The position numbers and the translations under genes are program-made. DNA of 64,000 bases from Deltaproteobacteria bacterium (GTDB taxonomy: Bacteria > Myxococcota_A > Polyangia > Polyangiales > JADJMO01), in NCBI GenBank assembly GCA_025363655.1, contig JANYDK010000037.1, positions 6,191-70,190 of the forward strand, written 5' to 3'. The notes below the pieces were generated by a model, which did not search any database, was not told where the DNA came from, and saw nothing but the letters and a program-made list of their open reading frames with translations. The number at the start of each line of letters is the position of its first letter. Positions within the stretch are counted from its first letter, which is position 1. Below are positions 16,694-42,569 of the stretch, piece after piece.

Positions 16694-17308
16694 TTGACGT
16701 CGAGCAAGCCGACAGCGAGCGTGACCGCCGTGCTCGCTCGCGAGGTCTATGCGCAACCGGCCATCGACGTCGCGCGGGCGCTCCTCGGTTGCACCCTCGT
16801 CCACGTCGACGACGGCGTGCGCCGGGGCGGGCGCATCGTCGAGACGGAGGCCTACCTCGGCCCCCACGATCGCGCGTGTCACGCGTCGAAGGGACGGAGC
16901 GCGCGTACCGAGTCGATGTTTCTCGAGCCCGGACACGCATATGTATATTTGATTTATGGAATGTACGACTGCTTCAACGTCGTCACCGATCGCGTCGATT
17001 ATCCCGCTGCGGTGCTGATTCGCGCGCTCGCGCCGCTCGAAGGCTGCCTCGGGGACACCGATGGACCCGGCAAGCTGTGTCGCGCGCTGCGCATCACGCG
17101 TCGCCACGATCGCCTCGATCTCGCGAGCCCGACGTCTTCACTCTTCCTCGAGGCCGGCCCGCCGCCTGCGCACATCGATCGCGGTCCGCGCGTCGGGGTC
17201 GACTACGCCGGGTCATGGGCTCGGCGACACTTGCGCTTCTGGGCTCGGCGCGACCCGTGGGTGTCGGGAGTCTCCGCGGCGATCCGCCGCCTCCGTAGCC
17301 GCGGATGA
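16694..17308 (+). CDS. mpg: DNA-3-methyladenine glycosylase (Mpg/AAG family)
   Basis: GGRIVETEAYLGPHDRACHA, GHAYVYLIYGMYDCFNVV, GPGKLCRAL. The start is uncertain (TTG 16694 or GTG 16721). Confidence 0.85.
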   Translation: MTSSKPTASVTAVLAREVYAQPAIDVARALLGCTLVHVDDGVRRGGRIVETEAYLGPHDRACHASKGRSARTESMFLEPGHAYVYLIYGMYDCFNVVTDRVDYPAAVLIRALAPLEGCLGDTDGPGKLCRALRITRRHDRLDLASPTSSLFLEAGPPPAHIDRGPRVGVDYAGSWARRHLRFWARRDPWVSGVSAAIRRLRSRG

Positions 17309-17327
17309 TCCAACTCGACGCGGGGGT

Positions 17328-17342
17328 GCGGCAACTTGCCGC
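17328..17342. promoter_or_regulatory. Perfect 15-bp palindrome GCGGCAA-C-TTGCCGC between mpg and ctaB
   Basis: Lies 20 nt after the mpg stop and about 80 nt before the ctaB ATG. Could be an operator or a hairpin. Confidence 0.3.
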
Positions 17343-17423
17343 GCAAATCGCTCGGGAAAGTCCCTGTTTCGCCCTCGCCCTGGGCGGCGCGCGGTCCTTC
17401 ATCTGCTAAGCGTCTCCCTCCCG

Positions 17424-18344
17424 ATGAACCCGGTCGTTTCCGCCTCCGCACCCGAGCCCACCGCCGCACGTCCGCGCGCCGGTGTTGGGCAGGTCGCGCG
17501 CGATCTCGTGGCGTTGACGAAGCCGCGCATCACCCTCGTCGTCCTCATGACGGCGGCGTGCGGGATGAAGCTCGCCGGTCACGCCTCCGGGCGCACGTGG
17601 CTCCTCGCGATGGTCGGCACCGCGCTCATCGTCGGCGCCGCCAACACGCTCAACATGTGGCTCGAGCGCGACGTCGACGGGCTGATGGAGCGCACGCGTC
17701 GTCGCCCGCTCCCCGCCGGTCGTCTCTCGCCGAGCACCGCGCTCGTCTTCGGCATCGCGCTCGCCATCGTCTCGCTGCCGATTCTCGCGATCGGCGTCAA
17801 CGCGATGACCGGGCTCCTCGGCGCCGTCGCCCTCGTCAGCTACGTGCTGATGTACACCCCGATGAAGCGCCACTCGCTGCGCGCGCTCTGGGTCGGCGGC
17901 ATTCCGGGGGCCATTCCTCCGCTCCTCGGCTGGGCCGCGGTCACCGGCAGCATCACCGCGCCGGGGCTCTCGCTCTTCGCGGTGCTCTTCGTCTGGCAGA
18001 TTCCGCACTTCATCGCCATCTCGGTCTTCCGCGCCGACGACTACGCGCGCGCCGGCCTCAAGGTCGTTCCGGTCGAGCTCGGTGAGCAGAAGACCAACGC
18101 GATGATGCTCCGCTATGCGGTCATCCTCTTCGCGCTCACGTACTGGCCGTTCTTCGCCCACGTCGGTGGCTACGGGTATCTCGGCATCGCCACGCTGCTC
18201 GGCGTCGCCTTCGTCGCCGCGTGCGCCGTCGGTTATCGCAAGAAGACCGCAGACGGACAGAGGAATCGCTGGGCGCGTGGCGTCTTCGCGTTCTCCATCC
18301 TCTACCTGGTCGCACTGTTCGTCGCGCTCGTCGCGGGGGCGTAG
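17424..18344 (+). CDS. ctaB: Protoheme IX farnesyltransferase (heme O synthase)
   Basis: UbiA-type polytopic membrane protein with [10 protein letters not shown]-like start, [21 protein letters not shown] and multiple TM helices. Confidence 0.9.
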
Positions 18345-29652: not shown

Positions 29653-30962
29653 CGATAGACGAAGCGCTCCGCATCGAAGTCCGAATAGGTGTGCGCTCCC
29701 CCGCTGCCGCGTTGCAGATGGCAGGGAGCAGGCGGGATCGGCGTGCAGGTGACGAGGAGCGACTGCGCCTTGCTCCAGGCCTCGGAATGAAACGAGAGCT
29801 GCGCCGAGGCGAGTGTCTCGAGAACGCCCCGCGAGACCGTCAGGAGATCGAAATAATCGCGTCCGTCGGCGGGGCTCGTGAGCTTGTCGAAGGTGACGGC
29901 GCGGATGACGAGATCGGGAATCGCGCGATCGTGGACCGCGTGCGTGGAGAACGAGAGGAGCTCGCTGGTGCCGGCGTCGCCCTTTTCGTCGCCCTTTTCG
30001 TTGAACGCAGTCTGCATGATCATCCAGCGCGTCCCGAGGACCACCTCGCCGTTCGCCTCATCGTCGAGCACCGCCAGCGCGTGACGATCGACGCGGTAAT
30101 TTCCGAAGATCTGCGTGAATGCGAGGTGGACGACGGACTCGGCGGCGGCGTCGGCGTCGAGCTGGACGATCGTCCGCGCGGCCGACTTCAAGGTCGCCAT
30201 GTGCGCGGTCTGGCGTGCGCGCTCGGGGAAACCGAGGTCGTCGAGGAAGGCAGCGGCGGCGGCGTGATCCGACGAGAGCGACGCCAACAGGGCATCGAGC
30301 TTCTCGCCGTGCACCTTCGGAACCTTCCCCGAAGGCGCAGCGATCGTCGGTGCCGGTCCCCACAGCTCGAGCTCGGCGATGCAAGCGTCGTCGACCTTCG
30401 TGCCCTTCGTCGACGCGAGGACGCGCGCACGAATCGTCTTGGCGACGGTCCCTTCGGGCAGCGTCAGCGAGGCTTCGCCCTTGCCCGCATCGATCGGCAA
30501 ATCGAGCTCTTTTCCCGTACCACCGCCATCGAGCACGAGCTGCACCCGGGTGACGCGTCCGTGCAGCGACGCCGACTTCGCGTCTTCGAAGAGTCGCAGC
30601 CCGAGGCCCGCGCGGAGTCGTACGCGCGCGAGCGTTTGCGGATTCGCCAGCTCGGCCTCGACCCACGCGTCAGCGGGCTTCGGCGCGCACCATCCCCCCG
30701 CGGGGTCACCATCGAAGGCGTGCTCGGCGAAGTGCTCTCTGCCAGGATCGTTCGTCTCGCTCGACGCGCGCGTGATCGCGACGGGAAGGCGCACGAGGGG
30801 ACGCGGGCCGGACGGGAGGATGGCGCCGCTGCTCGATGGGGTCGCGTTGGAAGTGGAGGCGATACTGGGATTCGTGCTCGAGCTCGGAGAAGGTGCAGCC
30901 GTCGGAGCGCTCCCACGATCACACCCGAGCACGACGATCGAGAGCCCGAGTAGGGCACGCAT
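29649..30962 (-). CDS. Lipoprotein with discoidin (F5/8 type C)-like domain
   Basis: Lipobox SIVVLGC. ASSE...HAFDGDPAGGWCAP...AWVEAELANPQTLARVRL resembles the discoidin-domain signature. ATG 30962 shares one base with the upstream stop (TGATG). Confidence 0.65.
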   Translation of the reverse strand: MRALLGLSIVVLGCDRGSAPTAAPSPSSSTNPSIASTSNATPSSSGAILPSGPRPLVRLPVAITRASSETNDPGREHFAEHAFDGDPAGGWCAPKPADAWVEAELANPQTLARVRLRAGLGLRLFEDAKSASLHGRVTRVQLVLDGGGTGKELDLPIDAGKGEASLTLPEGTVAKTIRARVLASTKGTKVDDACIAELELWGPAPTIAAPSGKVPKVHGEKLDALLASLSSDHAAAAAFLDDLGFPERARQTAHMATLKSAARTIVQLDADAAAESVVHLAFTQIFGNYRVDRHALAVLDDEANGEVVLGTRWMIMQTAFNEKGDEKGDAGTSELLSFSTHAVHDRAIPDLVIRAVTFDKLTSPADGRDYFDLLTVSRGVLETLASAQLSFHSEAWSKAQSLLVTCTPIPPAPCHLQRGSGGAHTYSDFDAERFVYR

Positions 30963-31861
30963 CAGAGGCACGGATCGGGCTCCTTCGCGTCCGCGCCTTC
31001 GGCGGTCTCCGACTGCCACTCGAAGCTGCACGCCGCGCCGGAAGGGCGGAGATTGCGGCCGAATTTCCGCCACGGGATGGTGACGCCGCATTCGAGGGTG
31101 AAGGTGTAAGTCGAAAGGGAGGTGGTCGTGAGCACCCTAAGGCCCGTCGGGAGGAGCACGAAGACGCTCGGGTCGCACAGCGCCTCGGCGGTCGGCTTCT
31201 GCCCGTCCGTAAGCCCATCGTGCTCGGGCAGCCCCCCGGCTGGAACCTCGCTCTTGCACAGCGCCGTCGTCAACGCAGCTGGGTCTTTCACGTCGTCACG
31301 CATCAGGCGCGCGAGCGTGATCGGGATCGGATCGCCCTCGGGCTCGAGCCACTCGTAGCTGTTCACCTCGAGCGTGCCGCTGATGTAACCGTCCGGACTG
31401 CGGCTCTCGGGTGGCGCGACCACGTAGCTGTCGACGGCCATGCACCACCACGACGCGACGCGGGTGGTGACGACCCCTTCGCTGCACATCTGACGCTCGG
31501 TCTTGATGTTGGAGTCCTTCGGCGGGGGAGGCTTCAGGAAGCTGGCGAACCGCATCCCGAGGAGTCGTCCACTGACGCCGAGGTCGAAATCGAACGCGGT
31601 CGAGTCGTCTTGCTCGACGATGGAGTGGGTGTTGAGGAGGGGCAGACGAATCGCCGGCCCTGCGAGCGGCAACTGCTGCCCGAGCTCGGCATGGGCCGGC
31701 TCTTTCGACGAGCTCGACGGCTTCGACGCCGGCTTCGTCGCGGACGATGACGAAACACTCGCCACGCTCGCGCCGCCCGCAGTCGGCGTCGTCTCGGGCG
31801 CCGTCTTCTTGCTGCACGCCATCGGCAAGAGCAGCAGCACACCCCATCGCTCGAATCTCAT
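30962..31861 (-). CDS. Lipoprotein, unknown function
   Basis: Lipobox LLLPMAC and a Ser/Pro/Thr linker. The start lies 15 nt after the radical SAM stop, with a GGGGG Shine-Dalgarno-like run. Confidence 0.6.
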   Translation of the reverse strand: MRFERWGVLLLLPMACSKKTAPETTPTAGGASVASVSSSSATKPASKPSSSSKEPAHAELGQQLPLAGPAIRLPLLNTHSIVEQDDSTAFDFDLGVSGRLLGMRFASFLKPPPPKDSNIKTERQMCSEGVVTTRVASWWCMAVDSYVVAPPESRSPDGYISGTLEVNSYEWLEPEGDPIPITLARLMRDDVKDPAALTTALCKSEVPAGGLPEHDGLTDGQKPTAEALCDPSVFVLLPTGLRVLTTTSLSTYTFTLECGVTIPWRKFGRNLRPSGAACSFEWQSETAEGADAKEPDPCL

Positions 31862-31876
31862 GCCGACCCCCGAGAG

Positions 31877-33862
31877 CTACGCCACGATCGGCAAACGACG
31901 ACGACGCTGGGATTCTTCCTCCATCTTCACGGCGGAGGCAGGCAACGTCACCGTGCCGAGTGCGTCGGGGAGCGGCAAATTCTGCCCTTTTGCGTACACC
32001 GGGTGACGACCTTGGGTGCGGTACCACTCGGCGACGGAGGCGTTGGCCTTCATCTTCTCGATGACGTTTCGCCAACCGACGCCGGTGTTGTACGCGCAGA
32101 AGCTGATCTCCCCCATCTGCGTGCCGTAGGGGATGATGCACATTTCGGTGCGACGGAAATCGTAGTTGAAGAGATCTTGGAACCACATGCCGGCGACGAA
32201 GAGGACGCGCCACTCGAAGTCGCTGGAGTCGCTCTCGTGCTCGCCGACCTTCTTTCCACGCGCGCCGGTCTGGCTGAGGAACTGCTTCACCAAATCGAAG
32301 AAGCCGTAGCCGGGAGGCGCCTTCTTGGCGTCGAAGTTCTTCAAGAGGGCGACCACCAGCTCGGCGAGCGTGAGCGCGCGGCCGTGGCTGGCGTCGGTGA
32401 TGTCTTGCAAGTCGACGAGGAGCTGCTCGAGGTCGAGGAACTTGGTGAGCGGCACCATCTCCTTCGTCCGCTTGTTGACGAACAGCACCGTGCCGATGCC
32501 GCAGTTGGGATGACAGCCGCACTTCATCGAGCCCCAGTCGGCGCCTTCGCCGAGGAGCTGATCGGTGACGTCGCTGAAGGGGCCCATCGCCGAGAGCGGG
32601 AACCAATCGCGGTGCGGCTCGATGAAGCCGGTCTGCGTCTTCAGGTCGTGCGCGAGGTGACTGAGGGTGTAGCGCTGCGCCGTGCGCACCTCGTCGGTGA
32701 CGTCCTCGTCGCGACCGGTGAAGCTCACCGGTTGAAAGCTCACGACCGTCACTTTGTCGGCGTTTTCCACGGCGAATTCGACGATCGGGCCGACCTGATC
32801 GTTGTTCACGCCGTTGGCGACGGTGACCACCAAGATGACGTCGACGCCGGCGGCGTGCAGGTGCTCGATGGCGCGCTTCTTCACGTCGAAGAGGTTGCCC
32901 ACCTTGCGATGCGCGTTGGCCTCGTTGGTGACGCCGTCGAACTGCAAGTACGCCATGCGGAGGCCGGCTGCCTTCGCCTCTTTCGCGAACTCCGGCTCTT
33001 GCGCGAAGCGAACGCCGTTGGTGGCGCACTGCACCGCGAAATATCCGAGCTGACGCGCGTAGCGAATGGCACGTAAGAAGTGTGGCGAGAGCGTCGGCTC
33101 GCCCCCCGAGAACTGTACGCTCATCTGCCGACGTGGCTCGATGGTCATCGAATCATCGAGAATTTTCGCGATTTCGTCCCACTCCAGCTCGTGCACATAG
33201 CCGACCTGGTTGGCGTCCATGAAGCACGGATCGCACATCATGTTGCAGCGGTTGGTGAGGTCGACGGTGAGCACCGAGCCGCGGCCGTACTTCACGCTCG
33301 ACGAGCCGTGATTGCGCAGCTCGCTGACCGGCGCGAGAAAATCGCGTCCCGGATAGAGCCGCTCGATGCGCGCGAGGAACGTCGGGTCCATCGCCATCAC
33401 GTCCTCGAAGCGCCCGTGCGTCGGACACTCCTTCACCATCCAGATCTTCCCGTCGCGCTCGATGATCTCGGCGCGAATCTCCCCTGGCTTGCCGTCGATC
33501 AGCTCACGCAGATCGCGCTCGCCGGCGAGGATGGCAGTGCGCACTTCCTTGACGCAACGCGGGCAGAGTGAATCGGTGGTGCGCGGCCAACCGAGCTGCG
33601 GATAGGTGCGCTCGCTCCGACGAAGCAGCGGCGCCGGCGCCCACTTCGGATGCAACGGCGCTCCCGGAAAAGCCTCGTTGAGCTTCTGCACCAGCGGCCA
33701 GGCGAGGCTCGCGGCCTTCTGCATCGCGCCTTCGATCGCGAGCGCGAGGCCCGACGCGGCCGTGGGATTTTCCGTCTCGAGGAGGGAGGCGACCCCGACC
33801 GAAAAGCGCTTCGCGTCGGACGCCGGAGACCGCATTGGCAGAGGTTCGTGCGCGTTGCTCAT
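31877..33862 (-). CDS. Radical SAM protein, COG1964 / MJ0619 / tetraether-lipid-synthase (Tes)-like architecture
   Basis: N-terminal zinc ribbon CPRC...ECPTHG, radical SAM CNMMCDPC, SAM-binding VQFSGGEPT, C-terminal MCIIPYGTQMGEISFCAYN. ATG 33862 chosen; the upstream 106 codons are low-complexity. Confidence 0.85.
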   Translation of the reverse strand: MSNAHEPLPMRSPASDAKRFSVGVASLLETENPTAASGLALAIEGAMQKAASLAWPLVQKLNEAFPGAPLHPKWAPAPLLRRSERTYPQLGWPRTTDSLCPRCVKEVRTAILAGERDLRELIDGKPGEIRAEIIERDGKIWMVKECPTHGRFEDVMAMDPTFLARIERLYPGRDFLAPVSELRNHGSSSVKYGRGSVLTVDLTNRCNMMCDPCFMDANQVGYVHELEWDEIAKILDDSMTIEPRRQMSVQFSGGEPTLSPHFLRAIRYARQLGYFAVQCATNGVRFAQEPEFAKEAKAAGLRMAYLQFDGVTNEANAHRKVGNLFDVKKRAIEHLHAAGVDVILVVTVANGVNNDQVGPIVEFAVENADKVTVVSFQPVSFTGRDEDVTDEVRTAQRYTLSHLAHDLKTQTGFIEPHRDWFPLSAMGPFSDVTDQLLGEGADWGSMKCGCHPNCGIGTVLFVNKRTKEMVPLTKFLDLEQLLVDLQDITDASHGRALTLAELVVALLKNFDAKKAPPGYGFFDLVKQFLSQTGARGKKVGEHESDSSDFEWRVLFVAGMWFQDLFNYDFRRTEMCIIPYGTQMGEISFCAYNTGVGWRNVIEKMKANASVAEWYRTQGRHPVYAKGQNLPLPDALGTVTLPASAVKMEEESQRRRRLPIVA

Positions 33863-33962: not shown

Positions 33963-34448
33963 ATGCCCCCCGGACCTCGACCAGTGTTTGCCCTTCCCGC
34001 GCTCGCGCTCCTCGGCCTCGTCTTGGTCGGCTGCGCAACGACGGCATCGTCCTCGCTGCCGCCCTCCCTCTCGCCCTCGCCCTCGCCACCGCCCTCGGGC
34101 CGACGGATGAGGACCATCACGCTGAAAGAGATCGGCACGTCCATCGTCGGCGCCCTTCCGACGGAGGTCGTGAAGCGCATCGTCCGCCAACATTTTTCGG
34201 CTCTTCGTCTCTGCTACGAAGCGGAGCTGAAGAAAGACCCGTCCCTCGCGGGGACCGTCTCGACGGCGCTCCTCATCGACGAGGAGGGTGTCGCCACATC
34301 GGTGGAGGCCAACGGCGGCTCGATGACCAACCCGGCGGTACGGGAGTGCATCGTCAAGGTGTTCGCGTCGATGTCGTTCCCGAAGCCAGAAGGCGGAAAA
34401 GTCAAAGTCACGTATCCAATCGACTTCACGAACCACGATGAGAAGTGA
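33963..34448 (+). CDS. Lipoprotein with AgmX/PglI-type C-terminal domain
   Basis: Lipobox LVLVGC, then LPTEVVKRIVRQHFSALRLCYEAELKKDPSLAGTV...NPAVRECIVKVFASMSFPKPEGGKVKVTYPIDF. Confidence 0.7.
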   Translation: MPPGPRPVFALPALALLGLVLVGCATTASSSLPPSLSPSPSPPPSGRRMRTITLKEIGTSIVGALPTEVVKRIVRQHFSALRLCYEAELKKDPSLAGTVSTALLIDEEGVATSVEANGGSMTNPAVRECIVKVFASMSFPKPEGGKVKVTYPIDFTNHDEK

Positions 34449-34535: not shown

Positions 34536-35768
34536 ATGCAGTCGTCCCTTCGCTACCTCGGCCTCGCCAGTCTCGTTCCCTTCGCGTCACTTTTCGTCGC
34601 GTGTGGTCCTGCGCCGACGCCGGCCGTCGGCAAGACGGTGATCGAGAAGAAGATGGCAGCCATCGCCGAGCTCGCCTCGCGCGGCACCTATTTGCCGCCG
34701 CCGATCGACGGCATCACGCTCGCTGCGCACGAGATCGATCTCAAGTTGCCGCGCGGGTGCGTGCCGCTCGACGCGCAGGGCATGCTCGGCGCTGCCAAGT
34801 TCGTCGACGACGCCGAATCCGAGCTCCTCAGCGCGTGCAACATCGTCGGTGATTCTGGCGGTATCGACGGTATCGACGGTATCGACGGGAAGGGCGGCAC
34901 GGGAAAGAAGCCCGTCAAGGTGACGGTGGTGCTCATCCGCCATCGCGTGCAGGTCGAGACCGGTGAGGCCGCGGCCTCGGCGCTCCTGCGTTCGCCGGGT
35001 GTTCTCAGCGCGACGACCACCACCATCACCGGCTCGGCCAACGCCGGTGGAGGTGCGGCGCTCAGCCCCGAGGTCGTCGTCACGCTCAACGCACCGACGG
35101 GTGACGGTGCGCGCCCCGGAACGGCGGTCTGGTACGGCGCGCTCGATGGGCTGTACGTGCTCTATGCCGAGGTCGATGGCGACGCCGAATCGATCGCCGC
35201 GTGGGGCGACGCGCTCACCGGGGCGATCATTCCCGGTGCATCGTCACATCCGATTCGCTGGCGTGCGCCGACGGGACTCGCACCCTCACAGTCGGCCTTC
35301 GGACCGTTCAAGATGAGGTTGCCCGAAACGCTCTCGAAGGTCTCGCACGACCAGCGCACCTTCAACGAGTTCATCGGCGACAGCCGCGATCCTCTCGATC
35401 CACGGGACGGCCAGAAATTCGCCACGCTGCGCGACGAGACCGGATTGGCCGTGGGCGGCAGTGGATTTCGCGTCGCGCCGCTTCCCGGAATCGCTCCCGA
35501 CGCGATGGGCGTCGCCAAGATGTCGGCGACGGCACGTGGCGGCACCGCTCTCACGACCTCGTTCGTCGATGCGCCCATTGGGAAGATCGCGCGCGTCGAT
35601 GCCACGCGACCGAGCGGCGATCACGAGGTCTACGCGGCGTTCATGGAAGGCGGTGAGGTGACGGTGATGCACCTCGTCTTCGCGAAGGAGAAGTGGGCAG
35701 CGTATTCGCCGTGGGTCGACGCCAGCTTCGCGACCGTGACGTTCGGTGGAGACGACGGTCCGTACTGA
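34536..35768 (+). CDS. Lipoprotein, unknown function
   Basis: Lipobox ASLFVAC, high GC3, 410 aa, no motif recognised. Confidence 0.6.
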   Translation: MQSSLRYLGLASLVPFASLFVACGPAPTPAVGKTVIEKKMAAIAELASRGTYLPPPIDGITLAAHEIDLKLPRGCVPLDAQGMLGAAKFVDDAESELLSACNIVGDSGGIDGIDGIDGKGGTGKKPVKVTVVLIRHRVQVETGEAAASALLRSPGVLSATTTTITGSANAGGGAALSPEVVVTLNAPTGDGARPGTAVWYGALDGLYVLYAEVDGDAESIAAWGDALTGAIIPGASSHPIRWRAPTGLAPSQSAFGPFKMRLPETLSKVSHDQRTFNEFIGDSRDPLDPRDGQKFATLRDETGLAVGGSGFRVAPLPGIAPDAMGVAKMSATARGGTALTTSFVDAPIGKIARVDATRPSGDHEVYAAFMEGGEVTVMHLVFAKEKWAAYSPWVDASFATVTFGGDDGPY

Positions 35769-35788
35769 GCTCGTGCTAGCGTCGCCGC

Positions 35789-36580
35789 ATGGCGGAGACG
35801 AAAGCGGAGAAGCGAATCGCATTGGTCACGGGCGCGTCGGCTGGGCTCGGCAAGGAGATCGCCTGCCTGCTCGCGAAAGACGGCCACGACGTCGTTCTCG
35901 TCGCGCGCAGTGAAGACAAGCTCCACGCGCTCGCCGACGAGTTGACCAAGACCCACGGCGTCACGGCGCACGTCGTCGCCGCCGATCTCGCGCAAAAAAA
36001 TGGGCCATCAGGCGTCTTCGCCGAGACCGAGAAGCGCGGCATCGTCGTCGACTTCCTCGTCAACAACGCCGGCTTCGGCTCCAACGGCGCGTTCCTCGAT
36101 CTCGATCTCGCGCGTGAGCTCGAGATGGTGCAGGTCAACGTCACGGCGCTGATCGAGCTCACCCATCTCTACGCGGGGCCGATGCGCGCGCGGAAGTTCG
36201 GCCGGGTGATGAACATCGCCTCGACCGCAGGCTTTCAGCCGGGGCCGTACATGGCGACGTATTACGCCTCGAAGTCGTTCGTCGTGATGTTCAGCGAAGC
36301 GCTGGCCTACGAGCTCGCAGGCACCGGCGTCACGGTCACCTGCCACTGTCCCGGTGCGACCGCGACCGAGTTCGCCAAGGCCGCCGGCAACGACAAAACC
36401 AAGCTCTTCGCCAGTGGCGTCGCCGATGCCAAAGAAGTCGCCCTCCACGCGTACCGCGCGATGATGAAGGGTAAATTGCTCGCGGTGCACGGCGCGATGA
36501 ATTGGATTCAGATGGAATCCCTCCGCATCGCGCCGCGCGCGCTGGTTCGGTCGATCGCCGCCGGTTTGAACAAGGGCTGA
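35789..36580 (+). CDS. Short-chain dehydrogenase/reductase (SDR)
   Basis: TGASAGLGKEIA cofactor motif, NNAG, catalytic YYASK. Confidence 0.9.
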   Translation: MAETKAEKRIALVTGASAGLGKEIACLLAKDGHDVVLVARSEDKLHALADELTKTHGVTAHVVAADLAQKNGPSGVFAETEKRGIVVDFLVNNAGFGSNGAFLDLDLARELEMVQVNVTALIELTHLYAGPMRARKFGRVMNIASTAGFQPGPYMATYYASKSFVVMFSEALAYELAGTGVTVTCHCPGATATEFAKAAGNDKTKLFASGVADAKEVALHAYRAMMKGKLLAVHGAMNWIQMESLRIAPRALVRSIAAGLNKG

Positions 36581-36609: not shown

Positions 36610-37665
36610 TCAGTCCGCGTTCTTGAACTCGATCGGATACGTCACCGCAACCTTGCCACCCTCGGGCTCCGGGTACGACAGCGTGGTGAACACCTTCGTC
36701 ACGCACGCTTGCACCGTCGCATTCCCCATCGTGCCGCCGCCCGCCTTCACCGCCTCGGGCTCGCCCTTCTCGTTGATGACGAACGACGTCGAAATCGTCC
36801 CTTCGAGCTTCGGATCCTTCTTCAGCTCGGCCTCGTAGCAGGCGCGAAAGCGCGGAAAATTGGCGCGGACGATGCGCTTCACGACTTCCGGCGGGAGGCG
36901 GCCGGTGATCGCCATGCCGGCCTCTTTCATCTTCACGGTCTTCACTTTGCGTCGCCGGTGCGCGCTCAGTGCGTAGACCACGGTCGCGGCTTTTCCCGCC
37001 TCCGGATGGAACGTCAGCTCGGTGCCGGCCTGAACGATGCACGCTTGCAAGGTCTCGCCGTCGAGCGTCCCCCCGACGATTTTCACCGTCGCGTGACCGT
37101 CGGCGCCGGTGAGCGTGAGCTGGAGCCCGATCGTGCCGTCGAGGTCCTTGTCGTAGCTCCCCGCCTTGTCGACGCAGGTCTCGAGCTCGGCGAAGCCGTT
37201 GCAGATCACCTGCTCGGCCGTCTCGGTCGGCATCCCTTCGACGCGCAACGTCTGACCTCGCAGCTGCACTGCGCGAGGTTTGCCGAATCCTCCGCCGGTG
37301 GTGGCGAGGCCGATGCCTTCGCCCCCGCCGAGCCCGCCGAAGAAGCCCAACCCGCCCGCGCCGAAGACGTCGCCGCCATCGGTGAGCGTGCCGAGACCGA
37401 TGCCGCCGCTCGTCGACGCACCGGCGTCCGAGACCGAAGGGCCGGCATCGGCCGTCGAATCGATGGGCTTCACGAGCGAGCCGTCGATGCAGCGCGCTGC
37501 CGTCACCTCGACGACGATGGGCTTCGCGCTGGCACTCGGCTTCGTCGAGGCGACGGTGTCGACGGGTTTGGTGATGTCGCTGCTGTCGCGACCGCGGCAG
37601 CCGTCCGCAAAGAAAGCGAGCACGGCGAAGAGAGCGGCGGAGGAGACGAGCGATACGCTGCGCAT
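36610..37665 (-). CDS. Lipoprotein with AgmX/PglI-type C-terminal domain (paralogue of 33963-34448)
   Basis: Lipobox FFADGC. The C-terminus LPPEVVKRIVRANFPRFRACYEAELKKDPKLEGTI...NATVQACVTKVFTTLSYPEPEGGKVAVTYPIEF is closely similar to the 33963 gene. Confidence 0.7.
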   Translation of the reverse strand: MRSVSLVSSAALFAVLAFFADGCRGRDSSDITKPVDTVASTKPSASAKPIVVEVTAARCIDGSLVKPIDSTADAGPSVSDAGASTSGGIGLGTLTDGGDVFGAGGLGFFGGLGGGEGIGLATTGGGFGKPRAVQLRGQTLRVEGMPTETAEQVICNGFAELETCVDKAGSYDKDLDGTIGLQLTLTGADGHATVKIVGGTLDGETLQACIVQAGTELTFHPEAGKAATVVYALSAHRRRKVKTVKMKEAGMAITGRLPPEVVKRIVRANFPRFRACYEAELKKDPKLEGTISTSFVINEKGEPEAVKAGGGTMGNATVQACVTKVFTTLSYPEPEGGKVAVTYPIEFKNAD

Positions 37666-37703
37666 CGGCCGATGCTCGCACGATTCGCGCGAGCTCGCGT
37701 GAC

Positions 37704-38405
37704 CTAGCGCGCGCGTCGTCGGCCGGTGTCGACCTGCGTCGAGGCGCGTCGTCGACCCATGAAGATGGTGTGACGCGCCCGCGAGCCCTCGCGCGCAGGT
37801 GTCGTCAGCACCTCGACTTCGAAGCCGCACATCTGCATGCGACGCTCGAAGCGCGCGTTCGGGCCCGACGACCAGATCGCCAAGACGCCGTCCTGCTTCA
37901 GCGCGGTGTGGCAAAGTCGAACGCCTGCATCGGCGTAAAGACGCTGATTTTTGGCCTGCGCGAGGGCCGCGGGGCCGTTGTCGACGTCGAGGAGGATGAC
38001 GTCGAAGGTGCGCGGCGAGCGCTTGAGCAGGTCGAAGACGTCACCGACGACGACGTTGGCGCGTCGATCGCGGATTGGATGATCGTTGAGCTGGCCGAGG
38101 TACTGACGGTTCCATTCGACGAGCTCGGGGACCAGCTCGGCGACGGTGACGACGGCGTCCTCGTCCACTCGATCGAGCACCGCGCGGAGCGTGTATCCGA
38201 GGCCGAGCCCGCCGACGAGCACCGCGTTCGCTTCCTCGACGCGATCGATCGCTTGCTCGGCGAGCGCCTCTTCCGAGTCGTGCATGCGATTGGACATCAG
38301 CACTTGCCCCTGCACGCGCACGACCCACTCGTCGCCTCGTTGCGCGAGGACGAACTCGGTGCCGTCGGCGATCTTGGCTTGGGCGATGGTGATGTACTGG
38401 AGCAA
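37704..38405 (-). CDS. Spermidine synthase-like SAM-dependent transferase
   Basis: LMSNRMHDSEEALA, VLVGGLGLGYTL, DVILLDVDNGP. The start is uncertain (TTG 38405 chosen; GTG 38438 would overlap the divergent gene). Confidence 0.65.
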   Translation of the reverse strand: MLQYITIAQAKIADGTEFVLAQRGDEWVVRVQGQVLMSNRMHDSEEALAEQAIDRVEEANAVLVGGLGLGYTLRAVLDRVDEDAVVTVAELVPELVEWNRQYLGQLNDHPIRDRRANVVVGDVFDLLKRSPRTFDVILLDVDNGPAALAQAKNQRLYADAGVRLCHTALKQDGVLAIWSSGPNARFERRMQMCGFEVEVLTTPAREGSRARHTIFMGRRRASTQVDTGRRRAR

Positions 38406-38429
38406 GGCCGGTCTCGTAGCATTGGAACG

Positions 38430-39362
38430 ATGCGCCACGCCAGCTTCGTCTGTTTCTTCGGTCTCCCGCTCCTGGTCGTGAACGCCTGCAGCAGCAAGAG
38501 CGACGCCGTCGCGGCGGCCAGCTCCGACAGCGGGACCGACGCGGTAGACGCGGCCGATCCGGTCTTCGGCGGCGATCGCCCGGTGGAGGTTCGCGTGCCC
38601 GAGGGCTACGATCGGAAGAAGCCTGCGCCGCTCCTCCTCATGCTCCACGGCTTCAGCGCCGGCGCGCTCTCGTTCGAATTCTACTTGAAGATGAGCAGCA
38701 TCGCCGACGCGCACGGCTTCTTCTACGTCGCCCCCGAGGGCACCGTCGACCACGCCGGCAATCGCTTTTGGAACGCCACCGAGGCGTGCTGCGACGACGA
38801 TCACACCGGGGTCGACGACGTCAAGTACCTCACCGGTTTGATCGAGGAAATCAAGGCGTTCTACGCGATCGATCCGAAGCGCATCTACGTCCTCGGGCAC
38901 TCCAACGGCGGCTTCATGGCCAATCGTCTGGCGTGCGATCGCGCGGATCTCTTCGCCGCCGCGGTCAGCCTCGCGGGTGCGGTCTGGCAAGACGTCGGCA
39001 AGTGCAAGCCGTCGGCGCCGGTCGGCTTTCTCCAGATCCACGGCACCGCCGACAAGACGGTGCTCTACGCGGGCGATCCTGGCACCCCTCCACTCACTGC
39101 GCCGTATCCGGGCGCGGAGCAGACGGTGGCGACGTGGGGGAAGAACAACGGCTGCAGCGACGCGCTCGTCGACACCGGGAAGAAGCTGCACGTCGACGCC
39201 GACTTGAAATCGCCCGAGACGAGCGTGCTCGAGCACTCGGGATGCAAAGCCAACGGTTCGGCAGAGCTGTGGAAGGTGGAAGGCGCGCCGCACATCTTCG
39301 CCTTCCCGCCCGAGGCCTTGGAGTCGACCTGGAAATTTCTCGACGCACACGCCAAGCCGTAG
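38430..39362 (+). CDS. Secreted esterase, PHB-depolymerase/LpqC-like alpha/beta hydrolase lipoprotein
   Basis: Lipobox LLVVNAC, LLLMLHGF, nucleophile elbow VLGHSNGGFMA, IHGTADKTV. Confidence 0.8.
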   Translation: MRHASFVCFFGLPLLVVNACSSKSDAVAAASSDSGTDAVDAADPVFGGDRPVEVRVPEGYDRKKPAPLLLMLHGFSAGALSFEFYLKMSSIADAHGFFYVAPEGTVDHAGNRFWNATEACCDDDHTGVDDVKYLTGLIEEIKAFYAIDPKRIYVLGHSNGGFMANRLACDRADLFAAAVSLAGAVWQDVGKCKPSAPVGFLQIHGTADKTVLYAGDPGTPPLTAPYPGAEQTVATWGKNNGCSDALVDTGKKLHVDADLKSPETSVLEHSGCKANGSAELWKVEGAPHIFAFPPEALESTWKFLDAHAKP

Positions 39363-39565
39363 ACCCCCCTACCAGCGACACGCGCACTGCGGTTGTCGCA
39401 CGAGCACGTCGAACGACGCGCGCGCGGCGTGGGCCATTGGCGCCATCGCCCTGATTTTCGCGCATCGAACGCGACGCGCGCGCACGCGACGTCGACCCGA
39501 CTAGGGCGCGGTTTTTCGTCTCGCCGAAGATTGCTGCGCAACTTTGCCCTATACTTCGCGACCTC

Positions 39566-40288
39566 ATGGCTGAAGGCTCGTTCGCGCTCGCGCTCCTCGG
39601 GATGGCCGAGACGATGCGCATCTCGTTTCCGACCGTCATCGAGTCCGTCATCGGCCGCGGCGCCACCCGCGAGGTCTGCAACGGGCGGCTCGATGCATGG
39701 TCGCGTCGCCTGCTCGACGAAGCGAGAATCACTCTCCGAGTGAGCGGACGCGAGGCCGTGCCACGCGACGAGTACTTCGTGGTCATGTCGAACCACCAGT
39801 CGCTCTACGACATCCCGGTGCTGTTCCAGTCGGTGCCGCCGACGCTGCGAATGGTGGCGAAATCCGATCTTTTCCGCGTCCCCGTCTGGGGCGCCGCCAT
39901 GCTCGCGGCCGAGTTCATCTCGCTCGATCGCGACGACAAAGAGCGTTCGCGCGAAGGTCTGCGCGTTGCCCGCGAGCGCATCCGCAGCGGAATCAACGTC
40001 TGGATCGCCCCCGAGGGAACGCGCAGCCCGAGCGGCAAGCTCGGACGCTTCAAGGGGGGAGGCTTCAAGCTCGCCTTCGACACCGGCACGCGCATCCTTC
40101 CGGTCACCATCGACGGCACTCGCAACGTCCTCGCGGCCAAAGGTCGCCACGTGCGCCGCGGTAAGCACGTCGAGGTGACGATCCACGCGCCGATCGATCC
40201 GCAGGCCTACGGCGATCGTCGTGAAGAGCTGTCCCTCGCGGTGCGCACCTCGATCGAATCGAGCCTCCCGCCCGAGCATCGCGGTTGA
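39566..40288 (+). CDS. plsC: 1-acyl-sn-glycerol-3-phosphate acyltransferase
   Basis: HX4D motif NHQSLYD, FISLDR, APEGTRS. Confidence 0.85.
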   Translation: MAEGSFALALLGMAETMRISFPTVIESVIGRGATREVCNGRLDAWSRRLLDEARITLRVSGREAVPRDEYFVVMSNHQSLYDIPVLFQSVPPTLRMVAKSDLFRVPVWGAAMLAAEFISLDRDDKERSREGLRVARERIRSGINVWIAPEGTRSPSGKLGRFKGGGFKLAFDTGTRILPVTIDGTRNVLAAKGRHVRRGKHVEVTIHAPIDPQAYGDRREELSLAVRTSIESSLPPEHRG

Positions 40289-40974: not shown

Positions 40975-42408
40975 CTAGGGTTTGCAGCCACCGGTGCCGG
41001 CCGCAGGGGCTGCCGGCAGGGCGGTGAGGGGCGAGCAGCCGAAGTCGAACATGTCGAGGAGCGCGTCGCTGTTGGCGTCGCGGTTCGACAGCGCGGGGAG
41101 ATCGAAGAGGGTCTCGATGAAGCGCGCGAGCGACGCGTGCGAGTGGAGCAGGTGCGAGACGTACCCGCGACGCGAGAAGGGCGAGATGGCCACGAACGGC
41201 ACGCGGAAGCCGTAATTGTCGAAGTCGGGCGTGTCGGCGCCGGGCACGCAGGCCTTGGGCGGCGCGACGTGGTCGAAGAAGCCGCCCGACTCGTCGTACG
41301 TGTAGAACATCGCCATGCCCTTGCCGTCTTTCAGCCAGAGCGGGCTCGTCGTCACCGCGTCGTAGACCTTCTTCGTCCACGCTTCGCCGGCCTGAATGTC
41401 GCCCGGGGGGTGCTCGTCGGAGGTGTTGAGCCCGGCGTCGATGAAGACGACCTGCGGGAGCGTACCGTCGGCGAGCTGCTTGAAGAAGTCGGCTTCTTTG
41501 CCGATTTTCTTCGGGTCGTAGTTGCTCGTGAGGAGCGCGCCGTCGAAGACGAGCGTGTCTTCGGTGTAGGCGCCCCAGGTGACGCCCGCCTTCTCCAGCG
41601 AGTCCATGATCAGCGGCGCGAGATCTTTGAAGTCGCTGGCGAGGCCGTTGGTGTCTTTCACGCCGTGCGAGGTGCCGGCGTAGAGGAACGAGCGGTTCGA
41701 CCAGGTGCCGGCGAGCGCATCGCAATGGTAGTGATCGGCGAGCGCGTAGGTGTCGGCGAGGAAGTAATAGAAGGGCAGATCGGTGCGGTCGTAGTAACCC
41801 ATCACGAACTTGCCGTCGGAGACGACCGGCTTGTCGAGGATGGTCGAGTGATCGATCGCGTTCTTGACGAAACCGTCATTTTTCCCGGTGTTCCACATGT
41901 TGTGCATGTTGGCCCACTGGTGCTCGGGATCTTCCTTCTGACACGTCGTCGTCTGATGGAAGGCAGTGACGTTGGCGCCGGCCTTGTCGGGATTGCTGAA
42001 GTCCGCGGAGAAGCCCTCGACGTCCTTGCGCGTCTTCGCGAGCGAGCCGAAGAGGTGATCGAAGGCGCGGTTCTCTTTCATGACGACGATGACGTGCGAG
42101 ATGGGGATCTTCCCGCGCGCGGTGGCGTCGAGGCCGAGCGTGTCGGCGACCTTCGCGCCCGCCTTGAACGTGCAGGCTTCGCGCTTCGACTTGGTCGTGT
42201 CGGTCGGCAGCGGCGAGCAACCGGCGTCGAAGGACGGCGTGGTGTCGGTGCCGACGTCACCGCTCGGAATCGTGTCGAGGCTCGAGTCGACGGGCGCGCC
42301 GGTGTCGCTCGTTCCGGCATCGCTCGACGACGATCCGCAACCGACCGCGGTGAGCCCGAGGGCACCGAACAAACCGAACAAACCGAGGCAAGTGAAGCGT
42401 TGGCGCAT
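40975..42408 (-). CDS. Phospholipase C / phosphoesterase family lipoprotein
   Basis: Lipobox LTAVGC and the phosphoesterase signature ISHVIVVMKENRAFDHLFGSL. Confidence 0.85.
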   Translation of the reverse strand: MRQRFTCLGLFGLFGALGLTAVGCGSSSSDAGTSDTGAPVDSSLDTIPSGDVGTDTTPSFDAGCSPLPTDTTKSKREACTFKAGAKVADTLGLDATARGKIPISHVIVVMKENRAFDHLFGSLAKTRKDVEGFSADFSNPDKAGANVTAFHQTTTCQKEDPEHQWANMHNMWNTGKNDGFVKNAIDHSTILDKPVVSDGKFVMGYYDRTDLPFYYFLADTYALADHYHCDALAGTWSNRSFLYAGTSHGVKDTNGLASDFKDLAPLIMDSLEKAGVTWGAYTEDTLVFDGALLTSNYDPKKIGKEADFFKQLADGTLPQVVFIDAGLNTSDEHPPGDIQAGEAWTKKVYDAVTTSPLWLKDGKGMAMFYTYDESGGFFDHVAPPKACVPGADTPDFDNYGFRVPFVAISPFSRRGYVSHLLHSHASLARFIETLFDLPALSNRDANSDALLDMFDFGCSPLTALPAAPAAGTGGCKP

Positions 42409-42569
42409 CCTCTCGGTGTATCGCGCGGGCGCCTCCTTGTCACCTTCTCGCGCCGTCTCGCGAGCTTGCAAAAGAGAGATCGAATCTTTGCCGAAGCGCC
42501 CACGTCCAAGGGGTGACAAATGTAGGGCGTTGCGTGACAGCACCGCCTTCGGGAGCTAAGAGGCTGTGC

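What the first reader, a model, noticed from the sequence alone, without database searches (positions are those of the whole stretch)
31877..33862. Tes / MJ0619-like radical SAM enzyme in a Myxococcota-type genome
The domain order is an N-terminal zinc ribbon (CPRC...ECPTHG), then the radical SAM CNMMCDPC, then a long C-terminal extension ending in CIIPYGTQMGEISFCAYN. This is the COG1964 architecture shared by archaeal MJ0619. That family was shown in 2022 studies to include the tetraether lipid synthase (Tes / GDGT-MAS), which couples lipid tails into membrane-spanning lipids. Bacterial homologues have been proposed as the source of branched GDGT-type lipids. A copy here raises the possibility of membrane-spanning lipid synthesis in this organism.
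Basis: partly seen in the sequence, partly recalled or inferred. Interest (0 to 1): 0.6.

Follow-up and report, generated by a model that had tools for sequence, protein, structure and literature searches.

The report
Tes-like radical SAM enzyme, bacterial variant
The gene is real and is a clear relative of the archaeal enzyme that fuses lipid tails into membrane-spanning lipids, but it belongs to a separate, untested bacterial branch that lacks one of that enzyme's iron-sulfur clusters, so lipid-tail coupling here is plausible but unproven.

Summary
A minus-strand ORF at 31877-33862 (661 aa; NCBI starts it at 33835, 652 aa) has a Zn-ribbon_HMPTM domain, a radical SAM core and a long C-terminal domain.

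Its only close solved relative is M. jannaschii GDGT-MAS/Tes (7TOL, E 6e-67; model TM 0.75).

It is not an equivalog of characterised Tes:
- It scores 349.6 bits against the NCBIfam Tes cutoff of 450.
- It lacks the N-terminal auxiliary [4Fe-4S] ligands (C73/C77/C80).
- It sits in a separate clade (NJ bootstrap 100).

I call this clade "Type B". Its signature is NRCNMMC, CGCHPNCG, GMWFQD and CIIPYGTQxGEISFCAYN. It occurs in at least 597 GTDB species: Polyangia, many Acidobacteriota, Gemmatimonadota.

"Type A" bacterial homologues (Solibacter, Bryobacteraceae) keep the N cluster and pass the cutoff. Solibacter usitatus apparently carries both types, so they are paralogues.

The catalytic apparatus of Tes is retained: the radical SAM cluster, the 5'-dA loop, the C-terminal cluster Cys, Met439 and Tyr459. 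No conserved operon was found.

Best reading: a lipid-tail radical C-C coupling enzyme (about 0.45). Main rival: a different lipid modification (about 0.35). No bacterial Tes homologue has been tested genetically.

The parts
31877..33862 (-). Complete coding sequence of the Tes-like radical SAM enzyme. It is 661 aa plus a TAG stop at 31877-31879. An alternative start at 33835 gives the 652-aa NCBI product.
   Evidence: (P0001 100% identical)
33587..33862 (-). N-terminal extension (residues 1-92), not covered by the 7TOL match (which starts at query residue 129). The first ~45 residues are variable. The rest (AWPxVQKLN...PKWAPAPLL...PQLGWPR) is conserved in the clade and is predicted as a long helix.
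33392..33586 (-). Rubredoxin-like zinc ribbon (Pfam Zn_ribbon_HMPTM, residues 93-157). Its ligands are C100, C103, C146 and H149 (CX2C-X42-CX2H, against X20 in MJ0619).
33278..33391 (-). Linker (residues 158-195) where MJ0619 has the N-terminal auxiliary [4Fe-4S] motif GCPYDCGLC. Here there is no cysteine and an 11-residue deletion. His185 is retained.
32723..33277 (-). Radical SAM core (residues 196-380). It holds the CX3CX2C motif C206/C210/C213 (33224-33247), SGGEP, ATNG and YLQFDG. It also holds FQPVSFTGR, whose Q377/S380/R384 align to Gln268/Ser271/Arg275 of the MJ0619 5'-dA loop.
32018..32722 (-). C-terminal auxiliary-cluster and lipid-pocket domain (residues 381-615). KCGCHPNCG lies at 32498-32524: C454 aligns to the MJ0619 Cys, while C448 and C450 are extra. 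AGMWFQD lies at 32174-32194, with M559 aligned to Met439. CIIPYGTQMGEISFCAYN lies at 32087-32140, with C575 and C589 (aligned to MJ0619 Cys) and Y579 aligned to Tyr459.
31880..32017 (-). C-terminal tail (residues 616-661) lying beyond the end of the 7TOL match. The start of the GRHPVYAK..LPLP motif, which begins at about residue 618, is conserved across Type B proteins of several phyla.
30962..31861 (-). Downstream 299-aa predicted lipoprotein (MRFERWGVLLLLPMAC...). It starts 15 nt after the stop and is probably co-transcribed. It is not conserved next to homologues elsewhere.
33963..34448 (+). Divergently transcribed neighbour. It is a small lipoprotein with an AgmX/PglI C-terminal domain (myxo_SS_tail) and marks the upstream limit of the gene.

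Best explanation
The gene encodes an intact, strongly conserved member of a bacterial sister branch of tetraether synthase. I call this branch 'Type B Tes-like'.

Shown:
- It has the Tes fold and domain order.
- It has the radical SAM cluster motif and the 5'-deoxyadenosine-binding loop.
- It has a rubredoxin-like metal site.
- It has the cysteines, methionine and tyrosine that align with those at or beside the C-terminal auxiliary [4Fe-4S] cluster of Tes. In the archaeal enzyme that cluster holds the first lipid radical as a carbon-sulfur adduct.
- It has no N-terminal auxiliary cluster.

Inferred mechanism:
1. The enzyme binds the hydrophobic tails of two membrane glycerolipids.
2. It cleaves SAM to a 5'-deoxyadenosyl radical.
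3. The radical abstracts hydrogen from a terminal carbon of one tail. Candidates are iso-branched acyl or alkyl chains, which myxobacteria make (my own background knowledge, not checked here).
4. That radical is parked on a sulfide of the C-terminal cluster.
5. A second SAM is spent on the second tail, and the two tails are joined by a C-C bond.

The product would be a membrane-spanning or macrocyclic lipid of the iso-diabolic-acid type, probably a minor or condition-dependent lipid. The predicted cofactor load is one mononuclear site plus two [4Fe-4S] clusters, against three in the archaeal enzyme.
For: - Full-length homology to GDGT-MAS 7TOL: E 6e-67, residues 129-615 vs 36-513.
- AlphaFold model pTM 0.75. 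Its Foldseek top hits are 7TOM and 7TOL (E 6e-25, TM 0.75), and the next hit is at E 9e-06.
- The best NCBIfam family is Tes, matched end to end (profile positions 2-481 of 486).
- Residues named as catalytic or structural in PMC9433317 are invariant in the alignment with MJ0619: C206/C210/C213; Q377/S380/R384 (= Gln268/Ser271/Arg275); M559 (= Met439); Y579 (= Tyr459); and C454, C575, C589.
- The same signature is identical in 85 of 88 loci across Polyangia, Acidobacteriota, Gemmatimonadota and others, at 56-84% identity. That indicates strong purifying selection.
- GDGT-MAS crystallised with E. coli ester-linked phosphatidic acid in its pocket, so the fold accepts bacterial lipids.
- Type B is common in acidobacterial groups that correspond (my mapping) to the subdivisions 3, 4 and 6 reported to make iso-diabolic acid (PMC13274423).
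- Those aerobes lack Mss (PMC13159169).
Against: - It is below the curated Tes cutoff (349.6 vs 450), while N-cluster-bearing bacterial homologues pass.
- It lies in a separate clade.
- The N-terminal cluster is missing. Its role is unknown, so the loss could matter.
- S. usitatus has two homologues: Acid_5929 (545 aa, 40%, 1e-139) and Acid_2410 (714 aa, 30%, 4e-62). By length and score these look like Type A and Type B. Paralogues in one genome often differ in function.
- Tes homologues were found in only 3 of 14 iso-diabolic-acid-producing acidobacteria.
- No membrane-spanning lipid has been reported from Myxococcota in the papers searched.
- There is no conserved lipid-gene neighbourhood.
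- No bacterial Tes homologue has been tested genetically or in vitro.
Confidence: 0.45

Rival explanations
1. Type B is a functionally diverged paralogue. It uses the same radical SAM plus C-terminal-cluster chemistry on a hydrophobic substrate but carries out a different reaction. [quoted passage not shown]
For: - The clade is distinct, with 100% NJ bootstrap.
- It is below the equivalog cutoff.
- The N cluster is lost, two conserved Cys (C448, C450) are gained, and the N- and C-terminal extensions are conserved.
- Both types co-occur in Solibacteraceae and Bryobacteraceae and apparently in the single genome of S. usitatus.
- In Gemmatimonadota a second, unrelated radical SAM gene sits directly upstream, and one Blastocatellia locus has another such gene in the same place. 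This hints at a multi-step radical pathway.
Against: - Every residue tied to the Tes coupling mechanism is retained.
- No alternative chemistry is known for this fold.
- Archaeal Tes itself makes several products (macrocyclic archaeol, GTGT, GDGT), so paralogues may differ only in substrate.
Confidence: 0.35
2. It is a true orthologue (equivalog) of archaeal tetraether synthase. It converts ether-linked diether lipids into GDGT-type tetraethers, as the finding's title implies.
For: Tes is the best family and structure match. Some JGI records label Type B proteins 'tetraether lipid synthase'.
Against: - It fails the curated cutoff, the N-cluster test and the clade test.
- NCBI names Type B 'radical SAM protein' but names Type A 'tetraether lipid synthase Tes'.
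- No archaeal-type lipid genes are in the window. The one UbiA-family gene is heme O synthase.
Confidence: 0.05
3. It is the 7,8-dihydro-6-hydroxymethylpterin dimethyltransferase of older annotations (methanopterin biosynthesis).
For: Many JGI records carry this name. A GTP cyclohydrolase I gene lies about 2 kb from one distant homologue.
Against: - Lloyd et al. could not corroborate that activity for MJ0619 and showed it is the lipid synthase.
- No pterin genes are conserved near the gene.
Confidence: 0.02
4. It is a TrsS-like radical SAM (seleno)protein or a peptide-modifying maturase.
For: TrsS is the second-best NCBIfam hit at 221 bits.
Against: - The score is far below the TrsS cutoff of 490, and the match covers only the N-terminal half.
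- There is no in-frame UGA.
- There is no precursor peptide or maturase neighbourhood.
Confidence: 0.02

Closest known systems
GDGT-MAS / tetraether synthase Tes of Methanocaldococcus jannaschii (MJ0619; PDB 7TOL/7TOM)
   Same: - Same domain order and overall fold.
- CX3CX2C radical SAM motif.
- Rubredoxin-like CX2C...CX2H site.
- 5'-dA loop Gln/Ser/Arg.
- C-terminal cluster Cys, labile Met and conserved Tyr.
   Different: - About 31-33% identity.
- No N-terminal auxiliary [4Fe-4S] cluster.
- 42- instead of 20-residue spacer in the metal ribbon.
- Two extra conserved Cys in the C-terminal cluster loop.
- About 90-residue N-terminal and about 45-residue C-terminal extensions.
- Bacterial host, probably aerobic (my background knowledge), presumably with ester- or ether-linked fatty-acid lipids rather than phytanyl ethers.
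'Type A' bacterial Tes homologues (e.g. Ca. Solibacter sp. P0548, Bryobacteraceae P0524/P0468, Phycisphaerae P0201; probably S. usitatus Acid_5929)
   Same: Same family and architecture, also bacterial. Found in some of the same acidobacterial families.
   Different: - Type A keeps the CPxxCGxC N-cluster motif.
- Type A scores 463-583 bits on the Tes model and is named Tes by NCBI.
- Type A is only 32-37% identical to the window protein.
- The culture-based link to brGDGT and iso-diabolic tetraesters was made through this type.
Mss, the membrane-spanning lipid synthase of Thermotoga maritima and Thermoanaerobacter ethanolicus
   Same: A radical SAM enzyme shown to couple fatty-acid tails into diabolic acids. 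It is the functional analogue of what is proposed here.
   Different: It is described as only remotely related to Tes and is so far confined to anaerobes. No Mss sequence was available, so no comparison was made.
Degenerate Type-B-like copies (Terriglobus roseus P0125; P0133, P0167, P0127)
   Same: They fall in the same N-cluster-less super-clade (bootstrap 100) at 38-46% identity.
   Different: They have lost some or all C-terminal cluster cysteines. The T. roseus copy sits on an integrative conjugative element. The window protein keeps all the ligands.

Membership tests
Tetraether synthase Tes / GDGT-MAS (NCBIfam NF045702 equivalog) | Radical SAM CX3CX2C cluster motif | tested here: met
   CNMMCDPC, with C206/C210/C213. 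It is invariant in the alignment with MJ0619.
Tetraether synthase Tes / GDGT-MAS (NCBIfam NF045702 equivalog) | N-terminal rubredoxin-type site CX2C...CX2H | tested here: met
   C100, C103, C146 and H149, with Pfam Zn_ribbon_HMPTM at E 6.8e-16. The spacer is 42 residues instead of 20.
Tetraether synthase Tes / GDGT-MAS (NCBIfam NF045702 equivalog) | N-terminal auxiliary [4Fe-4S] cluster ligated by C73, C77, C80 and a His | tested here: not met
   There is no Cys between C146 and C206, and an 11-residue deletion lies opposite GCPYDCGLC. The motif is absent from every Type B sequence and present in Type A and archaeal sequences.
Tetraether synthase Tes / GDGT-MAS (NCBIfam NF045702 equivalog) | C-terminal auxiliary [4Fe-4S] cluster with labile Met439, and the conserved Tyr459 | tested here: met
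   By alignment only: C454, C575, C589, M559 and Y579 are all invariant with MJ0619. Cluster binding itself was not tested.
Tetraether synthase Tes / GDGT-MAS (NCBIfam NF045702 equivalog) | 5'-dA/SAM loop Gln268, Ser271, Arg275 | tested here: met
   Q377, S380 and R384 in FQPVSFTGR are invariant. The numbering offset was checked against C33/H36 and C73/C77/C80.
Tetraether synthase Tes / GDGT-MAS (NCBIfam NF045702 equivalog) | Whole-protein score at or above the curated cutoff (450 bits) | tested here: not met
   The window protein scores 349.6 bits. Other Type B proteins score 299-362, and Type A scores 463-583.
Tetraether synthase Tes / GDGT-MAS (NCBIfam NF045702 equivalog) | Placement inside the clade that contains characterised Tes | tested here: not met
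   In an NJ tree of 54 sequences and 520 columns, the N-cluster-less sequences split from MJ0619 plus Type A with bootstrap 100/100. This is distance-based only. MA_1486, Maeo_0574 and the T. kodakarensis Tes were not available.
Tetraether synthase Tes / GDGT-MAS (NCBIfam NF045702 equivalog) | Overall fold including the C-terminal lipid-pocket domain | tested here: met
   Foldseek top hits are 7TOM and 7TOL (E 6e-25, TM 0.75 normalised to the target). Model confidence is moderate (pLDDT 69.5, pTM 0.75).
Tetraether synthase Tes / GDGT-MAS (NCBIfam NF045702 equivalog) | Tail-to-tail C-C coupling activity, and membrane-spanning lipids in the host | not testable with these tools
   This needs lipidomics, genetics or enzymology. 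No paper found reports it for any bacterial homologue.
Radical SAM (seleno)protein TrsS (NF045646) | Score at or above the cutoff of 490 | tested here: not met
   221.2 bits, with the best stretch covering only residues 128-412.
Mss bacterial membrane-spanning lipid synthase | Sequence homology to T. maritima / T. ethanolicus Mss | not tested
The literature calls Mss only remotely related to Tes.

The most novel reading that the evidence does not exclude
Type B is the missing membrane-spanning-lipid synthase of aerobic soil bacteria. It would be a version of Tes stripped of its surface-exposed N-terminal cluster. It would make iso-diabolic-acid-type lipids in the acidobacterial groups that I equate with subdivisions 3, 4 and 6, in Gemmatimonadota and in Polyangia. 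That would make Polyangia myxobacteria unrecognised sources of brGDGT-type biomarker precursors.
Probability: 0.2. Interest if true: 0.75.

Novelty: new variant of a known kind. Interest (0 to 1): 0.45.

Why it matters
Branched GDGTs are among the most widely used terrestrial palaeotemperature and pH proxies. The enzymes and most of the organisms that make them are still not established, and aerobic producers lack the one proven bacterial coupling enzyme (Mss).

Surveys that count 'Tes homologues' in bacterial genomes do not separate the two paralogous types distinguished here. Only the type that keeps all the Tes clusters has been linked, by culture work, to brGDGT or tetraester production.

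If the cluster-poor Type B enzyme couples lipid tails, then Polyangia, Gemmatimonadota and many uncultured Acidobacteriota become candidate proxy sources. If it does something else, current gene-based source assignments over-count. Either result is directly testable, because culturable Polyangia (Pendulispora, Polyangium fumosum) carry close orthologues.

Tried and rejected
- Exact-match look-ups of the window protein and of P0001 found no annotated contig. I used close homologues instead.
- I looked for a conserved operon by clustering ORFs from 88 loci. Only lineage-specific synteny appeared:
  - YjbQ and a DeoC-family aldolase in some Polyangia;
  - surE-pcm-dedA in Pyrinomonadaceae;
  - a second radical SAM gene upstream in Gemmatimonadota.
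  None of these is present in the window.
- The UbiA-family gene at 17019-18341 was checked as a possible archaeal-type prenyltransferase. It is heme O synthase.
- The PlsC-type acyltransferase, SDR, esterase and phospholipase-C-like genes 2-9 kb away are not conserved next to homologues, so I did not count them as context.
- I tried to confirm by name that S. usitatus Acid_2410 is Type B. Two searches and a cluster look-up returned only unnamed MAG proteins. The assignment rests on length, identity and E-value in PMC10087280 Table S5.
- Supplements of PMC13159169 and PMC8941075 held nothing usable on Myxococcota.
- A literature search for COG1964, MJ0619 and TrsS gave nothing beyond Lloyd et al..
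- The pterin methyltransferase and TrsS readings were considered and rejected (see rivals).
Full report
**1. Observation**

The window is 64 kb of 64-69% GC DNA. On the minus strand an ORF ends with a TAG at 31877-31879. From the ATG at 33862 it encodes 661 aa. A 100% identical NCBI protein (P0001, 652 aa, on a 145-kb contig) starts at the next Met, 33835. Neither start has an obvious ribosome-binding site. The first ~45 residues are not conserved among homologues, so both starts remain possible.

The further upstream extension of the ORF to 34180 overlaps the promoter side of a divergent lipoprotein gene at 33963-34448. That gene carries the myxobacterial AgmX/PglI C-terminal domain.

Pfam finds Zn_ribbon_HMPTM (residues 93-157) followed by Radical_SAM (202-364). 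The gene is real: GC3 is 0.85, there are thousands of homologues, and Polyangia relatives are 74-84% identical.

**2. What it resembles**

- The only solved structure with more than generic radical SAM similarity is M. jannaschii GDGT-MAS/Tes. The match to 7TOL has E 6e-67 and spans residues 129-615 of the query.
- An AlphaFold model built on 40 clade members is of moderate quality (pLDDT 69.5, pTM 0.75). Even so, it hits 7TOM/7TOL far above everything else (E 6e-25, TM 0.75; next hit E 9e-06).
- In NCBIfam the Tes equivalog model NF045702 is the best hit and is matched end to end. The score is 349.6 bits against a curated cutoff of 450.

**3. Cofactor sites**

Lloyd et al. (PMC9433317) define four metal sites in MJ0619:
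- a rubredoxin-type site C9X2C12X20C33X2H36;
- an N-terminal [4Fe-4S] cluster on C73/C77/C80 plus a His;
- the radical SAM cluster;
- a C-terminal [4Fe-4S] cluster with the labile ligand Met439, next to the conserved Tyr459.

They also define Gln268/Ser271/Arg275 as the 5'-dA loop. The PDB chain numbering is native +20. I verified this on C33/H36 and C73/C77/C80.

In the alignment with MJ0619 the window protein keeps:
- the rubredoxin-type site (C100, C103, C146, H149, with a 42-residue spacer);
- the radical SAM motif (C206/C210/C213);
- the 5'-dA loop (Q377/S380/R384);
- Met439 (M559) and Tyr459 (Y579);
- three Cys (C454, C575, C589) that align with Cys of the MJ0619 C-terminal domain.

It has no cysteine at all between C146 and C206, and it has an 11-residue deletion exactly where MJ0619 has GCPYDCGLC. 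The N-terminal auxiliary cluster is therefore absent.

It has only 12 Cys in total. One of them, C279, is not conserved. Two extra conserved ones, C448 and C450, lie in the loop KCGCHPNCG. The role of the N-terminal cluster in Tes is unknown. The cluster implicated in catalysis is the C-terminal one.

**4. A distinct subfamily**

The best 80 are:
- Polyangia, including Polyangium fumosum DSM 14668 and a Sorangium MAG (64-76% identity);
- many Acidobacteriota (Blastocatellia, Pyrinomonadaceae, Chloracidobacterium-like, Vicinamibacteria, Thermoanaerobaculia, Solibacteraceae, Bryobacteraceae, Polarisedimenticolia);
- Gemmatimonadota, Eisenbacteria and a few Proteobacteria-labelled MAGs (56-64% identity).

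In 85 of 88 loci the signature is identical: DLTNRCNMMCxPC, no N-cluster motif, CGCHP[ND]CG, GMWFQD (AMWFQD in one locus) and CIIPY[GA]T[QE]xGE[IV]SFCA[YF]N. The remaining three loci are two copies of the degenerate T. roseus gene and one partial ORF. I call this subfamily Type B; the name is mine.

A search of 50%-identity cluster representatives found only 539 clusters at E<=1e-30 for the whole family. The more distant ones (31-39% identity) carry the CPxxCGxC N-cluster motif. They include a Thorarchaeota protein, a Phycisphaerae protein and an acidobacterial group.

That acidobacterial and planctomycete group is Type A. It includes Ca. Solibacter sp. P0548 and Bryobacteraceae P0524/P0468. 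It scores 463-583 bits on the Tes model, while Type B proteins score 299-362. NCBI accordingly names Type A proteins 'tetraether lipid synthase Tes' and Type B 'radical SAM protein'. Some JGI records do call Type B 'tetraether lipid synthase'.

An NJ tree (54 sequences, 520 columns, 100 bootstraps) gave these results:
- The N-cluster-less sequences separate from MJ0619 plus Type A with support 100.
- The Polyangia sequences are monophyletic with support 100, which is consistent with vertical inheritance within Polyangia.
- Intact Type B on its own, excluding the degenerate variants that branch inside or beside it, is recovered in only 41 of 100 replicates.

**5. Paralogy**

Both types occur in Solibacteraceae and Bryobacteraceae. 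Halamka et al. (PMC10087280, Table S5) list two S. usitatus homologues of MA_1486:
- Acid_5929 (545 aa, 40.2% identity, E 1e-139);
- Acid_2410 (714 aa, 30.1% identity, E 4e-62).

By length and score these match Type A (545-549 aa) and Solibacteraceae-like Type B (about 700-714 aa). This assignment is an inference, because I could not retrieve the named sequences.

The culture-based link between 'Tes homologues' and brGDGT (S. usitatus) or iso-diabolic tetraesters (K. versatilis) was made through the high-scoring homologue. It is therefore not direct evidence for Type B.

Conversely, Zeng et al. report one homologue in E. aggregans, a minor brGDGT producer. It has a Type-B-like score (32% identity, E 4e-61). 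That would fit Type B activity. It could also be the degenerate kind seen in Terriglobus roseus, which lacks the C-terminal cluster Cys and lies on an integrative conjugative element.

**6. Genomic context**

The window gene is followed after 15 nt by a non-conserved lipoprotein gene. Beyond that lie a discoidin-like secreted protein, a Sel1-repeat gene on the opposite strand, and a MoxR-type AAA operon that is syntenic with the closest metagenomic relative.

Upstream, beyond the divergent AgmX/PglI-domain lipoprotein gene and a further hypothetical gene, lie these genes:
- an SDR;
- a PHB-depolymerase-like esterase;
- a PlsC-type acyltransferase (39455-40285);
- DUF1415;
- a phospholipase-C/acid-phosphatase-family protein;
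- a GH5 glycosidase;
- PhzF;
- an enoyl-CoA hydratase.

None of these is conserved beside homologues in other genomes. Clustering the ORFs of 88 loci found no partner shared across lineages. The rest of the window is ordinary myxobacterial chromosome: GlnE, a Lon-like protease, heme O synthase, a Ser/Thr kinase and an FHA-sigma54 activator. The gene therefore stands alone, as archaeal tes often does, and context neither supports nor contradicts a lipid role.

**7. Literature status**

- Bacterial Tes homologues were reported in 2022: 456 of them, in 'Acidobacteria and various Proteobacteria' (PMC8941075). They were proposed as brGDGT enzymes.
- In 2025-2026 papers they are still described as experimentally unconfirmed (PMC11868695; PMC13459092).
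- Sahonero-Canavesi et al. found no Tes homologues in most diabolic and iso-diabolic acid producers, and in only 3 of 14 producing acidobacteria. Mss, their proven coupling enzyme, is confined to anaerobes, so aerobic acidobacteria have no assigned enzyme.
- I found no report of membrane-spanning lipids in Myxococcota.

**8. Interpretation**

What is shown:
- The gene is intact and under strong constraint.
- It has the Tes fold and all residues so far tied to Tes catalysis.
- One cluster is missing.
- It belongs to a separate, widely distributed bacterial clade, which appears to be paralogous to the bacterial Tes type that passes curated thresholds.

What is inferred: it acts on lipid tails by the same two-SAM, cluster-sulfur-adduct coupling mechanism. 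I put this at about 0.45.

The main rival, at about 0.35, is a different radical modification of a hydrophobic substrate. The paralogy and the adjacency to other radical SAM genes in Gemmatimonadota and one Blastocatellia locus support it. The pterin methyltransferase and TrsS readings are very unlikely.

**9. Novelty and score**

A Tes homologue in a (delta)proteobacterial genome is not new in itself, and this protein is one of thousands of near-identical database entries. What appears not to have been spelled out is that it belongs to a cluster-poor paralogous subfamily, distinct from the homologues that underlie the brGDGT hypothesis. I rate it a new variant of a known kind. Interest is moderate (0.45): it bears on a long-standing question and is readily testable, but all the evidence here is by homology.

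Noticed in passing
L048:4514-5761, with orthologues in L052, L056, L085, L086 (Gemmatimonadota); L040:5881-6954 (Blastocatellia): In five Gemmatimonadota loci a conserved ~390-420-aa radical SAM gene of no recognised family lies directly upstream of the Type B Tes-like gene on the same strand. Its best NCBIfam hit is AhbD at 90 bits, far below cutoff. One Blastocatellia locus has a different 357-aa radical SAM gene in the same position. This may be a two-enzyme radical pathway. No counterpart exists in the window.
   Followed up: partly
L006/L007:8001-9875 (Terriglobus roseus DSM 18391, P0125): A 624-aa relative (43% identical) has lost the C-terminal cluster cysteines. It sits between a TrwC relaxase, two integrases and a TraG/TrwB coupling protein, so it lies on an integrative conjugative element. 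It is probably not a working lipid synthase.
   Followed up: partly
window 39455-40285 (+), 37575-39359 (+), 40978-42555 (-), 35780-36577 (+): A loose group of lipid-related genes lies 2-9 kb from the radical SAM gene: a PlsC-type 1-acylglycerol-3-phosphate acyltransferase, a PHB-depolymerase-like esterase, a phospholipase-C/acid-phosphatase-family protein and an SDR. It is not conserved beside homologues elsewhere, so it is probably coincidental.
   Followed up: partly
window 23254-27560 (-): A MoxR-type AAA_3 ATPase is followed by two unannotated genes of about 330 and 590 aa. The same order is found downstream of the closest metagenomic relative (L003). This looks like a Bat/MoxR-like operon conserved by synteny.
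   Followed up: no
window 34536-35768 (+): A 410-aa secreted or lipoprotein-like ORF with no family match contains a short GIDGIDGIDG repeat.
   Followed up: no
L001, L002, L004 (Polyangia loci): A YjbQ-family gene lies divergently upstream, and a DeoC/LacD-family aldolase lies a few genes downstream, of the Tes-like gene in three Polyangia genomes. In L001 the aldolase is next to an FBPase. Neither gene was found in the part of the window that was annotated.
   Followed up: partly
L001:1-8051 (Pendulispora albinea CP089984): About 2-10 kb upstream of the Tes-like gene lies a cluster with PaaA/PaaC-like proteins, another radical SAM protein, a thiolase, an acyl carrier protein, a ketosynthase, a metallo-beta-lactamase-fold protein, a SnoaL-like protein and a class IV aminotransferase. 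It looks like a small fatty-acid or polyketide-type biosynthetic cluster and is specific to that genome.
   Followed up: no
window 17019-18341 (+): A UbiA-family prenyltransferase was checked in case it was an archaeal-type lipid gene. It is heme O synthase (278 bits, above cutoff).
   Followed up: yes
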